Positions 53,401 to 56,400 of a DNA stretch of 64,000 nucleotides are shown here, in pieces. The stretch lies in assembly GCF_003704095.1 (NCBI RefSeq), contig NW_020846126.1:124001-188000 (forward strand), read 5' to 3'. Origin of the DNA: Pocillopora damicornis (taxonomy: Eukaryota). The position numbers are program-made. Each line of letters begins with the position of its first letter. Position 1 is the stretch's first letter.

Positions 53401-56400
53401 ATCTTTAGTTTAGCTGCTGCTATAACCAGCTGTCGCCGTGACTTGAAAAAGGAAACTCCAACTACGTGATGTTCTCGTTGTCGCCAATTCCGCTTCATCG
53501 GTTCCATCGATTCTCAGCTGCACAGAAACCGACTTTATAGACTCGAGTCAGTGTCATCACCTTCACTGTTTGCTTCTCCGCCAGTTACCCAATATCCTAC
53601 AGCCCATAATTAGGGTTTCTTTTTACTTAAAGCATCTCGCACAGACTGCATGAATCTCTGACCCATCTCCTCAACGTTTGGAATTCCTTGGTAATTTTGT
53701 TGTATATATGCTCCTGTTAACGTGCCAGCAACAAGTCCCAGCACCAGCGTTTTGTTAATATGAGAAAAAATAACTCCAGCGGCAAAACCTTGAAGAAATG
53801 AGTAATCAAGAGGCGGTTTCTTCAGACTATCATCTCCTCCTTCGGGAGCCATCTTGATCGTTCCTCAAATTGAGATCCAGGCCCTCTCGAGTAATGACTC
53901 ATTCCCTGTTTCTCAAGGTCAGAATTTACTGAAGAAGGAAGGGGGGATGGGAGAGAAGACGATTTTAGTGAGGAAATTAATTACGTTGTATTTGTAAAAC
54001 AGAATATGATTAACTCAGGATAATTTTATGATTAATTATGAATTTTTTTTAATTGGAACAAGTTTGATTCTCCCATTGTCTAATTCAACAGCCTCAACTC
54101 CCAGCTCTCTTAGCCGTGAAGTGTCAGCAAGCCCTTGGCAATCCATGGCTGAAACAATTCTTTGGTTTTCTTTATTATTCTCCAAGAGGTTTCTGATTGC
54201 AAAGATGGCCCACTGACAGATGACTGAACTCAAGGTCAAGGAAGAAAGAATAAACAAAGATGGACAGAAAAATATAATGAGCCGAAAAAAACAACCCCCC
54301 ACAAATGTACAGTAGATCATAAAGTTAGTGCTCTTCTTCAAATGCCTTGCCATTCATTTTGATGTAATCCTTCTCAAAGCTGATTCTGTAGTGAGCCAAA
54401 TGAAATTCTGAGTACAGTGCAAAATAATAACCAATTAAAATTGGAAAGGATACAAGGATTGTGATCATCCACATTACAGTGATCCAGTAGTAATGGAATT
54501 CCTCCTAGGTCACGTACCTGCAACAATGTACACAATAATTTAACACAATCTGTGATGAGCATTTAATTAAAAATAATTCTCCTAATGAAATATAATTCTT
54601 CTAAAGCTGCAAGGAAAATTTTACCACTCAAAAAACATCTTTACCTTGTTCTGATTGGCTGCATGTTTGTAACACATATTCCCTATGACTCGCACTAGAT
54701 CTCTCTGAAAGCCATGAATAGGACTCAGTTTCCCAGAGTCTACACCTTGTGGTATGGAGTGTGCATTGCTGAAAGTTTCCTTTACCTCTGAATTAGTAGT
54801 CTCCTTTAATAAGCCTAAAACATAGTTTTTTTTGGAAATAAAAAACTGTCATTTCCTCTCTATATACAAAACAAATATTAAGAGCTACTATATACATCAG
54901 TGTAAAAGGTAAGAGAGTACTTTAAAAAACTAAAAAAAGTACATGTATTTCTCTCTGATACATGAATGTGTGAATTTGGTAAATTAATACCAATATCCCC
55001 TCACATAATTGTCACTTATACAACTGTATTGCTTCTCCTTCATGGTCCCTCTTCCTCAAACCACGAGCAGCAACCCTCCCAAAAGTCATTTGACAGCTGA
55101 AGGCTAAGGCCTATGGTCATTTACAAAAGCATTGGCCCAAGGTCCTTTTTGACCAGACACAATAAAACTTTCAACAAACCTACACAGGTGGTAAGTAATG
55201 GGGTTCTTTCTTGTAGACCAGTGAGGTTTGATTGTAGTCCTGTGCCAATGGATAATACACTTAACAGCCGCGTAACAATCAAGACCTGAAACTAAATACA
55301 GGGACAAGTGATTACCAGTTTGCAAACATAATATGAGACAAATCAAGANNNNNNNNNNNNNNNNNNNNNNNNNNNNNNNNNNNNNNNNNNNNNNNNNNNN
55401 NNNNNNNNNNNNNNNNNNNNNNNNNNNNNNNNNNNNNNNNNNNNNNNNNNNNNNNNNNNNNNNNNNNNNNNNNNNNNNNNNNNNNNNNNNNNNNNNNNNN
55501 NNNNNNNNNNNNNNNNNNNNNNNNNNNNNNNNNNNNNNNNNNNNNNNNNNNNNNNNNNNNNNNNNNNNNNNNNNNNNNNNNNNNNNNNNNNNNNNNNNNN
55601 NNNNNNNNNNNNNNNNNNNNNNNNNNNNNNNNNNNNNNNNNNNNNNNNNNNNNNNNNNNNNNNNNNNNNNNNNNNNNNNNNNNNNNNNNNNNNNNNNNNN
55701 NNNNNNNNNNNNNNNNNNNNNNNNNNNNNNNNNNNNNNNNNNNNNNNNNNNNNNNNNNNNNNNNNNNNNNNNNNNNNNNNNNNNNNNNNNNNNNNNNNNN
55801 NNNNNNNNNNNNNNNNNNNNNNNNNNNNNNNTTCAAAAATACAAATCTAAAATTACATACAAAGTCATCAGATGATGGACTCAGCTGTTGTAGTTGTTGT
55901 ATAATGTCTTCAGCCTGCTTTTCAAACTCATCAGCAATGTAAGCTAAGGAGTCTGTATAAAAACCATGTTTCACATGTTCTTCTCTTAATTTGATACTTG
56001 GCTCATCTAAAGCATCTGTGAAAATTCAATAACAAAAAATAACACTTGAATTGATGTACCAACTACCGGTAACCTGATAGCAAAGGGTTACCTGCTTCTA
56101 GACAAAATTAAACACTGACGTATGTCTGTAACAGACATGCAACAGGCATGGTAATTAGTGAAAGTAAAAATAGGTGGGCCATAACTCAGCCCCTACCTGA
56201 AAAAAAAAAAAGAAAAAAAGAAAAAGAAGAAGAAGAAGAATAAGAATAAGAAGCAACAGAATAGTTGAAGAAGTCATTATCCAGCTTACAATCAACTAAC
56301 ATAACAATGACAGATGACATTTTTGCTTAATAGGAGAGTTAGCCAACATCTGTATGTTTGTACCCAGAGACTCTCTTTTGCCATGCACATGCCAAATAAA

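What the first reader, a model, noticed from the sequence alone, without database searches (positions are those of the whole stretch)
53610..53852. Homologue of the vertebrate SLC35A4 uORF microprotein without SLC35A4
Seen: an intronless 80-aa ORF with FLxGFxAG...LGxxxGTxTGxYxxQxY..PNVE, and no long ORF in the 1.2 kb before the convergent BBS7 end. Established (recalled): in vertebrates this protein is encoded by an upstream ORF of the bicistronic SLC35A4 mRNA and is a mitochondrial membrane microprotein related to STMP1. Inference: the microprotein is an ancient gene that predates its capture as a uORF.
Basis: partly seen in the sequence, partly recalled or inferred. Interest (0 to 1): 0.7.

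Follow-up and report, generated by a model that had tools for sequence, protein, structure and literature searches.

The report
Stand-alone STREMI-like mitochondrial microprotein gene
A small intron-free gene here encodes an 80-residue two-helix membrane protein clearly related to the vertebrate microprotein made from the SLC35A4 upstream ORF, but with no SLC35A4 behind it, so this protein type seems older than two recent papers state.

Summary
Window 53852..53610 (minus strand) is an uninterrupted 80-codon ORF. It passes Pfam DUF4535 (34.6 bits, cut-off 28.3). It has many close unnamed relatives.

A profile of those relatives finds 25 named vertebrate records at E 7e-14 to 7e-11. Of these, 17 are named SLC35A4 upstream ORF protein or microprotein.

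Similarity covers both hydrophobic helices. The GxxxG / GxxxGxxxG glycines sit at a constant 28-residue offset from the vertebrate ones. A helix-1-only model scores 11 of 11 vertebrate proteins above 4400 of 4400 shuffles.

Downstream lies 1.2 kb with no minus-strand ORF over 52 aa, then the convergent end of BBS7. The upstream neighbour is ataxin-10.

The idea that the microprotein predates the bicistron is already published for jawless vertebrates (PMC13303939). That paper and PMC12183330 say the protein is vertebrate-only, and this locus argues otherwise.

Three things stay open:
- No STMP1 sequence could be obtained, so one-to-one orthology to STREMI is untested against common ancestry of STREMI and STMP1.
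- The organism was never identified.
- The vertebrate N-terminal helix is absent.

Verdict: a new member of a known family, of moderate interest.

The parts
53610..53852 (-). Intron-free coding sequence of the 80-aa two-helix DUF4535 microprotein. It has an acidic N-terminus (1-16), helix 1 (17-30, G22xxxG26), helix 2 (34-53, G39xxxG43xxxG47) and a C-terminal amphipathic helix (60-77).
   Evidence: ORF. Pfam DUF4535 34.6 bits on residues 40-79. Relatives. Helices in the AlphaFold2 model (mean pLDDT 66.6). Glycine positions and hydrophobic moment 0.62 for 60-77.
53853..54035 (-). 183-bp spacer between the ataxin-10 stop and the microprotein ATG. The promoter and/or 5' leader must lie here. The start context is A at -3 and G at +4. 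An out-of-frame upstream ATG at 53902 opens a 26-codon ORF that overlaps the start.
   Evidence: Sequence reading and script. The transcription start is inferred, not shown.
52877..53040 (-). Candidate polyadenylation signals of the microprotein mRNA: ATTAAA starting at 53040 and 53028, AATAAA starting at 52886 and 52882 (minus-strand starts). They imply a 3' UTR of about 0.6-0.75 kb and an mRNA of about 1 kb.
   Evidence: Hexamer scan. Several relatives sit on contigs of 1.0-1.5 kb, which fits this size but proves nothing.
54036..54353 (-). Context: last coding exon of an ataxin-10 homologue on the same strand, directly upstream. ATTAAA at 54053 lies just before its stop.
   Evidence: Pfam Atx10homo_assoc 56.2 bits, profile 44-98 of 99. 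Hexamer.
52322..52414 (+). Context: last coding exon and stop of BBS7, convergent with the microprotein gene.
   Evidence: Pfam BBS7_hp 29.3 bits, profile 88-114 of 114. Earlier BBS7_hp and BBS7_GAE exons.

Best explanation
This is a real, free-standing, single-exon gene. It most likely gives a monocistronic mRNA of about 1 kb that encodes an 80-residue membrane hairpin of the DUF4535 family.

The protein has the core build of vertebrate STREMI (the SLC35A4 uORF protein): two short glycine-zipper helices joined by a tight loop, followed by an amphipathic C-terminal helix. It lacks STREMI's first 28 residues.

It belongs to a large, well-conserved family of 74-88-residue proteins found outside the named vertebrate clade. 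The vertebrate uORF proteins form a fast-evolving offshoot of that family.

[quoted passage not shown] Because nothing is encoded behind it, it has no part in controlling translation of a second cistron. That role is a later vertebrate addition.

Shown here: the ORF, its conservation, homology over both helices, the glycine register, and the absence of a downstream ORF. Inferred: location, topology, oligomerisation, function, transcript ends.
For: ORF and family:
- ORF and start context.
- DUF4535 above cut-off.
- 80 of 5451 candidates at 87-148 bits with a profile of close relatives, mostly 74-88 aa long.

Link to vertebrate STREMI:
- Profile A2 gave 75 hits among 849 candidates: 48 unnamed at 86 bits or more, then 27 at 58-69 bits. 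Of those 27, 25 are named vertebrate records. 17 are named SLC35A4 upstream ORF protein or microprotein, and 8 are 'hypothetical' or 'uncharacterized' records of vertebrate species.
- BLASTP against the Scyliorhinus canicula record: 28 of 70 identical, E 1e-14, query 3-72 against 37-99.
- In a 55-row alignment (window, 45 unnamed, 9 named vertebrate), G26, G43, G47 and Q52 are invariant. K21, G22, F23, A25, G39, N53 and P58 are at 90% or more.
- GxxxG starts at 22, 39, 43 here and at 50, 67, 71 in P0124 and P0125. This matches the G54/G71/G75 that PMC13303939 mutated.
- Pfam DUF4535 covers only helix 2 and the tail. A separate model of helix 1 (window 15-36, 61 non-vertebrate rows) scores 13.4-15.0 bits on 11 of 11 named vertebrate N-terminal segments. 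0 of 4400 local shuffles reach 13.4; the maximum is 11.5.

Structure and locus:
- Three helices, 17-30, 34-53 and 60-77, in the model.
- No ORF over 52 aa behind the gene, then convergent BBS7.

Function by analogy: STREMI has a dual-TM hairpin with both termini in the intermembrane space, GxxxG-dependent stability and oligomerisation, and association with MIC10/MICOS (PMC13303939, passages of sections 10 and 14).
Against: - No expression data: the transcript ends and the monocistronic state are inferred.
- The ataxin-10 stop lies only 183 bp upstream on the same strand, so co-transcription is not excluded.
- The structure model is of modest confidence (pLDDT 66.6, pTM 0.29).
- STREMI's N-terminal amphipathic helix (residues 11-28), whose deletion mislocalises the human protein (PMC13303939), has no counterpart here. 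A model of the vertebrate N-terminus scores -0.6 on the window protein.
- In the tree the vertebrate clade sits on a stem of 1.16 changes per column. Its attachment among the other rows is unresolved and flagged as a long-branch join.
- STMP1 was in no analysis.
- The 11 vertebrate rows are nearly identical in helix 1, so they count as about one observation.
Confidence: 0.78

Rival explanations
1. It is the orthologue of STMP1 (mitolamban) with an N-terminal extension. On this reading STREMI is a vertebrate invention derived from an STMP1-like ancestor, as PMC13303939 proposes, and the gene would act in complex III/IV assembly rather than at cristae.
For: PMC13303939 (section 13) reports STMP1 homologues across land plants and metazoans and STREMI only in vertebrates. 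This family may be what that paper counted as STMP1. The only curated family hit is DUF4535, whose 45-position model is about STMP1-sized and matches residues 40-79. Non-vertebrate rows and STREMI rows score similarly on it, 22-35 against 33-46 bits.
Against: STMP1 is described as 47 aa with one N-terminal transmembrane helix (PMC8833175, passages). This protein has two helices. Its first helix is specifically similar to helix 1 of STREMI: 11 of 11 above all 4400 shuffles, with K-G-F-x-A-G near-invariant across both groups. A scan of 1.84 billion representatives gave no full-length hit of 50 aa or less, though a 47-aa relative would score too low to be seen. No STMP1 sequence was compared.
Confidence: 0.15
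2. It is the undivided ancestor-type gene. One two-helix DUF4535 gene existed before vertebrates and a vertebrate-stem duplication gave STREMI (two helices kept, N-terminus added) and STMP1 (helix 1 lost). The window gene is then equally related to both. This is a sub-case of the best explanation, not a contradiction of it.
For: Every non-vertebrate-type relative I inspected whole has both helices. The vertebrate clade is a single long branch (100/99, stem 1.16). No short one-helix relative surfaced near this family.
Against: The protein atlas lists DUF4535 clusters of 74 aa and of 55 aa, both with Arthropoda as commonest phylum (scores 0.80, leads only). That hints that long and short forms coexist outside vertebrates. 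PMC9932084 (passage) calls the 47-aa STMP1 conserved 'from human to nematode'. Short ORFs are under-called in gene sets, so their absence is weak evidence.
Confidence: 0.4
3. The ORF is translated as a downstream cistron of the ataxin-10 mRNA, a different bicistronic arrangement, rather than from its own promoter.
For: Same strand, with only 183 bp between the ataxin-10 stop and the ATG. No AATAAA lies in the spacer (AGTAAA at 53930 only). The first AATAAA on this strand is at 52886, beyond the microprotein ORF.
Against: An ATTAAA at 54053 sits just before the ataxin-10 stop and could end that mRNA. The ATG has a strong context. In-frame upstream extensions in relatives' ORF calls (for example P0069, P0004, P0006) show no ataxin-10-like sequence in that frame. 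Several relatives lie on contigs of only 1.0-1.5 kb.
Confidence: 0.1
4. Chance ORF or dead copy.
For: ORFs of this length are common in the region.
Against: Intact frame, family-wide invariant residues, and E-values down to 4.6e-45 against independent records.
Confidence: 0.02

Closest known systems
STREMI / SLC35A4-MP / AltSLC35A4 (vertebrate SLC35A4 upstream ORF protein, 102-105 aa)
   Same: Two glycine-zipper helices in the same register: GxxxG, then GxxxGxxxG 17 residues on. Shared K-G-F-x-A-G, G-T-x-T-G-x-Y, Q-N-Y and P-N-V-E motifs, 40% identity over 70 residues. Amphipathic C-terminal helix. DUF4535.
   Different: - It is 28 residues shorter at the N-terminus and has no counterpart of the amphipathic helix 11-28.
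- The inter-helix loop differs: S-H-I-N-K here against A-K-L-R-x-S in vertebrates.
- It lies outside the vertebrate clade (100/99).
- It is not upstream of SLC35A4.
- The CDS is intron-free, while the human CDS spans three exons (PMC12183330, passage).
STMP1 / mitolamban / Mm47 (47 aa)
   Same: Same Pfam family, DUF4535. Described as an inner mitochondrial membrane microprotein with a charged C-terminus (PMC8833175, passages).
   Different: Described with one N-terminal helix and an sORF over three exons (PMC8833175). This protein has two helices and no intron. No sequence comparison was possible.
MIC10 (MICOS core subunit)
   Same: Small hairpin with glycine-rich helices. STREMI is reported to share its topology and to co-oligomerise with it (PMC13303939).
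   Different: No Pfam match to a MIC10 family at E up to 10. The motif here is GxxxG, not the GxGxG that the paper gives for MIC10. Resemblance of build only, not membership.

Membership tests
Pfam DUF4535 (PF15054) | Score at or above the curated gathering score (28.3 bits) | tested here: met
   34.6 bits, E 1.5e-08, residues 40-79 on profile 5-43 of 45.
STREMI / SLC35A4 uORF protein | Two transmembrane helices forming a hairpin | tested here: met
   By prediction only: helices 17-30 and 34-53 in the model (pLDDT 66.6) and hydrophobic stretches centred at 23-28 and 32-45. Topology was not testable.
STREMI / SLC35A4 uORF protein | Conserved GxxxG motifs in both helices (G54, G71, G75 in human; PMC13303939) | tested here: met
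   G22xxxG26 and G39xxxG43xxxG47. The offset to 50/67/71 in P0124 and P0125 is 28 throughout. G26, G43 and G47 are invariant in 55 rows.
STREMI / SLC35A4 uORF protein | Helix 1 homologous to STREMI helix 1 (the part outside DUF4535) | tested here: met
   The helix-1 model scores 13.4-15.0 bits on 11 of 11 named vertebrate segments. 0 of 4400 shuffles reach 13.4.
STREMI / SLC35A4 uORF protein | N-terminal amphipathic helix (residues 11-28) needed for localisation | tested here: not met
   The protein starts 28 residues later in the alignment. A model of the vertebrate N-terminus scores -0.6 on window residues 1-20, against a decoy maximum of 6.9. Residues 1-16 are non-helical with low confidence.
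STREMI / SLC35A4 uORF protein | C-terminal amphipathic helix | tested here: met
   Helix 60-77. It has the highest hydrophobic moment in the protein, 0.62, against 0.59 for 86-103 of P0125.
STREMI / SLC35A4 uORF protein | Encoded upstream of an intron-free SLC35A4 CDS on one mRNA (jawed vertebrates) | tested here: not met
   No minus-strand ORF over 52 aa in the 1.2 kb before convergent BBS7. 0 of 25 ORF segments scanned across the window hit a nucleotide-sugar transporter family. Lamprey and hagfish STREMI also lack this feature (PMC13303939).
STREMI / SLC35A4 uORF protein | Falls inside the clade of named STREMI proteins | tested here: not met
   The 11 named vertebrate rows form one clade (100/99) that excludes the window row.
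STREMI / SLC35A4 uORF protein | Inner mitochondrial membrane location; association with MIC10/MICOS | not testable with these tools
   Needs experiments.
STMP1 / mitolamban | About 47 aa with a single N-terminal transmembrane helix | tested here: not met
   80 aa with two hydrophobic helices. The STMP1 description comes from PMC8833175 (passages).
STMP1 / mitolamban | Sequence groups with named STMP1 proteins rather than with STREMI | not tested
MIC10 | MIC10 family profile match and GxGxG-type motif | tested here: not met
   Only DUF4535 was reported at E up to 10. The motif is GxxxG.

The most novel reading that the evidence does not exclude
The two-helix, STREMI-type hairpin is the ancestral and widespread form of the whole DUF4535 family. 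On this reading the gene lived as a free-standing, intron-free microprotein gene long before vertebrates. Vertebrate STREMI is that same gene after rapid change, gain of an N-terminal targeting helix and, in jawed vertebrates, capture of a retroposed SLC35A4 in its 3' region. STMP1 is a truncated one-helix derivative. The printed statements that STREMI has no homologue outside vertebrates would then be wrong, and a cristae-shaping partner of MIC10 would be an old part of animal (perhaps eukaryotic) mitochondria.
Probability: 0.45. Interest if true: 0.55.

Novelty: new member of a known kind. Interest (0 to 1): 0.42.

Why it matters
STREMI / SLC35A4-MP is currently the best-studied case of a functional protein made from a 5' leader, and it is the model for 'gene symbiosis' by retroposition.

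Two papers date the protein to vertebrates (PMC13303939, PMC12183330). A clearly homologous two-helix protein encoded by a free-standing gene outside the named vertebrate clade has three consequences:
- It lengthens the period in which the microprotein existed on its own.
- It shows which parts are old (the glycine-zipper hairpin and the C-terminal helix) and which are vertebrate additions (the N-terminal helix and the uORF role).
- It offers simple systems in which the microprotein can be studied without disturbing SLC35A4.

It also suggests that what is filed as 'STMP1 homologues' in invertebrates may have the STREMI build.

Tried and rejected
- Cluster look-up for names and organisms of the unnamed relatives was not available.
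- Solved structures: only chance matches at E about 1 (uridine phosphorylases).
- NCBIfam: nothing.
- The first profile search (A1) reached no named protein. It worked only after adding rows that share helix-1 words with vertebrates.
- Homodimer prediction: no verdict.
- A model of the vertebrate N-terminal 46-48 residues against the long N-termini of 8 unnamed 87-131-aa relatives gave -1.3 to 6.9 bits, with a decoy maximum of 6.9. That is no detectable similarity (one search was the same script with a bug).
- Rfam scan of the window: one tRNA only.
- Protein atlas: cluster names and phyla only, with scores of 0.80-0.92, used as leads.
- A first tree of 144 rows is set aside and nothing rests on it. 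The tree reported uses 72 of the 150 stored proteins plus the window row. It leaves out fragments and frame-shifted rows (P0019, P0020, P0023, P0028, P0108, P0112), the repeat protein P0027, near-duplicates, and all unnamed rows that could be vertebrate.
- Fold search of the model was not run because the model's confidence is low.
- Literature: no paper describing a non-vertebrate STREMI homologue turned up in searches. One search was badly framed and says nothing.
- The supplements of PMC13303939 (Datasets EV4-EV6, trees) could not be seen. They may list members of this family as STMP1 homologues.
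Full report
THE OBJECT

On the minus strand, 53852 to 53610, there is an uninterrupted ORF of 80 codons with ATG in a strong context (A at -3, G at +4) and a TAA stop. An ORF of this size is not unusual here. One search lists 18 ATG ORFs of 40 aa or more in 4.5 kb, one of 79 aa on the other strand, so the case rests on homology.

FAMILY AND CONSERVATION

The protein passes Pfam DUF4535 (34.6 bits against a cut-off of 28.3). Only residues 40-79 are matched, that is the second helix and the tail. NCBIfam and the PDB sequence set gave nothing.

A word-indexed search found 19 of 20 candidates at E 4.6e-45 to 1.2e-22 and 61-99% identity, all carrying PF15054 and none named. 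A full HMMER scan of 1.84 billion cluster representatives gave 48 hits at E <= 1e-3. One is a 904-aa repeat protein that I take for spurious. The alignments in that scan run over query positions about 6-79 or 17-73, so they include the first helix as well.

A profile of 17 relatives found 80 proteins at 87-148 bits, mostly 74-88 aa long. Relatives align to the whole ORF without internal gaps, so the coding sequence has no intron.

LINK TO THE VERTEBRATE uORF PROTEIN

A second profile (A2: the window protein plus 17 unnamed relatives chosen for diversity in helix 1) returned 75 hits among 849 candidates. 48 were unnamed proteins at 86 bits or more. After a clear step came 27 at 58-69 bits (E 7e-14 to 1.6e-10).

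Of those 27, 25 are named records from birds, sharks, a skate, a bichir, a paddlefish, teleosts and a lemming. 17 of them are called SLC35A4 upstream open reading frame protein or microprotein. The two unnamed ones were not used.

Pairwise, the window protein and the Scyliorhinus canicula record share 28 of 70 residues (E 1e-14 for the single comparison), from window residue 3 to 72.

In a 55-row alignment (window, 45 unnamed, 9 named vertebrate), G26, G43, G47 and Q52 are invariant. K21, G22, F23, A25, G39, N53 and P58 are kept in at least 90% of rows.

GxxxG starts at 22, 39 and 43 in the window protein and at 50, 67 and 71 in P0124 and P0125, a constant offset of 28. These are the glycines (G54, G71, G75) whose mutation destabilises human STREMI (PMC13303939, passages of section 10).

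Helix 1 lies outside the Pfam model, so I tested it on its own. An HMM of window residues 15-36 built from 61 non-vertebrate rows scores 13.4-15.0 bits on 11 of 11 named vertebrate N-terminal segments. None of 4400 shuffles that keep the local composition reaches 13.4; the maximum is 11.5. The vertebrate rows are nearly identical there, so this is about one observation, but a clear one.

SHAPE

- An AlphaFold2 model from the 55-row alignment has modest confidence (mean pLDDT 66.6, pTM 0.29). It shows helices 17-30, 34-53 and 60-77.
- The last helix has the highest hydrophobic moment in the protein (0.62), as does the C-terminal helix of the shark protein (0.59).
- The first 16 residues are acidic and unstructured.
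- STREMI's N-terminal amphipathic helix (residues 11-28), whose deletion mislocalises the human protein (PMC13303939), has no counterpart. The window protein simply begins 28 residues later. A model of the vertebrate N-terminus scores -0.6 on it.
- Some unnamed relatives of 87-131 aa have long N-termini, but these are not detectably like the vertebrate one: 8 rows score -1.3 to 6.9 bits against a decoy maximum of 6.9.

TREE

A maximum-likelihood tree of 72 rows (window, 60 unnamed non-vertebrate-type, 11 named vertebrate; 81 columns) puts the vertebrate rows in one clade (100/99) on a stem of 1.16 changes per column. The window row sits in a tight group of 13 rows, with its nearest neighbour at 85% identity.

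Where the vertebrate stem attaches is not resolved, and the join is flagged as a possible long-branch artefact. The tree has no STMP1 and no root. It therefore shows that vertebrate STREMI is a fast-evolving offshoot of a slower family. It does not show who is orthologous to whom. An earlier 144-row tree is set aside.

THE LOCUS

- Upstream on the same strand is the last exon of an ataxin-10 homologue (Atx10homo_assoc, 56.2 bits, profile 44-98 of 99). Its stop is only 183 bp before the ATG.
- Downstream, the longest minus-strand stop-to-stop ORF before the BBS7 stop is 52 aa; the others are 35-48 aa. Three of them have no Pfam match.
- BBS7 runs on the plus strand. Its hairpin domain ends in 52322-52411, with the stop at 52412-52414, and its GAE domain is at 49008-49337.
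- There is therefore no room for an SLC35A4 cistron behind the microprotein ORF.
- Across the window, 0 of 25 ORF segments scanned hit a nucleotide-sugar transporter family. A gene made of short exons could have been missed.
- Candidate poly(A) signals on the minus strand lie at 53040/53028 (ATTAAA) and 52886/52882 (AATAAA). They fit an mRNA of about 1 kb. Several relatives lie on contigs of 1.0-1.5 kb, which agrees with this size but is not evidence of expression.

WHAT IS KNOWN

- Andreev et al. 2015 noted that the conserved SLC35A4 uORF carries DUF4535 (PMC4383229, passages).
- PMC13303939 (section 13 read whole; passages of sections 10, 14 and 42) names the protein STREMI. It shows a dual-helix hairpin in the inner membrane with both ends in the intermembrane space, GxxxG-dependent oligomers, and association with MIC10/MICOS.
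- The same paper finds that STREMI's C-terminus resembles STMP1. It reports STMP1 in land plants and metazoans but STREMI 'exclusive to vertebrates'. It finds a stand-alone STREMI in lamprey and hagfish, and proposes that the intron-free SLC35A4 CDS was retroposed into the STREMI locus in jawed vertebrates.
- STMP1/mitolamban is 47 aa with one N-terminal helix and an sORF over three exons (PMC8833175, passages).
- PMC9932084 (passage) calls STMP1 conserved from human to nematode.

What is not in print, as far as searches reach, is a homologue with the STREMI build outside vertebrates.

MECHANISM

Shown: a conserved, intact, intron-free ORF; two glycine-zipper helices in the STREMI register; an amphipathic C-terminal helix; no second cistron.

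Inferred from STREMI: insertion as a hairpin in the inner mitochondrial membrane, self-association through the GxxxG faces, and a role in cristae/MICOS or respiratory-complex organisation.

Without the N-terminal helix, targeting would have to rest on the hydrophobic hairpin. This has been shown for the first 22 residues of STMP1 (PMC8833175). The translational-control role of the vertebrate uORF cannot apply here.

OPEN POINTS

1. The gene may be a one-to-one STREMI orthologue or the undivided ancestor-type of STREMI and STMP1.
2. Atlas clusters of 74 aa and 55 aa, both with Arthropoda as commonest phylum, hint that long and short forms coexist outside vertebrates. Their scores are 0.80, so they are leads only.
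3. No call identified the organism. That it is not a vertebrate STREMI locus follows from the tree and from 40% identity, against the 66% reported between zebrafish and human (PMC12183330).
4. The nearest atlas cluster (77 aa, score 0.92) has Chordata as its commonest recorded phylum. The family's range is therefore unclear.
5. Transcript structure is inferred, and read-through from ataxin-10 is not excluded.
6. The supplements of PMC13303939 could not be seen and may already list this family under STMP1.

VERDICT

This is a new member of a known family (DUF4535) with the STREMI architecture, encoded by a free-standing gene. It matters mainly because it contradicts two printed statements on the age of STREMI and separates its old core from its vertebrate additions.

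Noticed in passing
window 53853-54053, minus strand: The ataxin-10 stop is only 183 bp upstream of the microprotein ATG on the same strand. An ATTAAA lies just before that stop and there is no AATAAA in the spacer. This could be a very compact promoter or co-transcription.
   Followed up: partly
window 53902, minus strand: An out-of-frame upstream ATG opens a 26-codon ORF that overlaps the microprotein start. It matters only if transcription starts upstream of it.
   Followed up: no
proteins P0024, P0099, P0109, P0110, P0029, P0030: An unnamed sub-group of 102-131 aa has a long basic, Trp-rich N-terminal extension before the same two-helix core. The extension shows no detectable similarity to the vertebrate STREMI N-terminus.
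   Followed up: partly
atlas clusters: Separate DUF4535 clusters of 74 aa and 55 aa both have Arthropoda as commonest phylum. A 77-aa cluster has Chordata as commonest, and there is also a 39-aa cluster. This hints that long and short forms coexist in one phylum.
   Followed up: no
window 8839-12324, minus strand: One open frame of 1161 aa encodes a membrane adenylyl cyclase with two cyclase domains (Guanylate_cyc 380 bits, AC_N). It appears to have no intron.
   Followed up: no
window 35751-38552, minus strand: A 933-aa open frame is rich in Ser, Pro and Val repeats, with a hydrophobic stretch near the end and no Pfam match. A 426-aa open frame runs antisense to it (36694-37974), probably an effect of the repeat.
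   Followed up: no
window 28037-28109, minus strand: A tRNA gene, the only Rfam match in the window.
   Followed up: no
window 22660-24500 and 31924-32867, minus strand: Coronin-type exons (DUF1899 61.7 bits; WD40) and an HMG-box exon (43.6 bits).
   Followed up: no
window 59400-60761 and 62974-63999, minus strand: A long open frame of 453 aa, interrupted by an N run, has no Pfam match in the 404 aa tested. A voltage-gated potassium-channel-type ORF (BTB_2, Ion_trans) runs off the window end.
   Followed up: no
window 55349-55831 and 60617-60716: Runs of N (483 and 100 bases). The first lies inside the ataxin-10 gene region. Both were left as they are.
   Followed up: no
protein P0027: A 904-aa tandem-repeat protein scored E 3.7e-11 against the 80-aa query in five stretches. 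It looks like a composition or repeat artefact, not a relative.
   Followed up: no
PMC12396333 against PMC13303939: The two papers disagree on topology: 'single-pass transmembrane domain' against a dual-helix hairpin. The two conserved glycine-zipper helices seen here in distant relatives fit the hairpin.
   Followed up: partly
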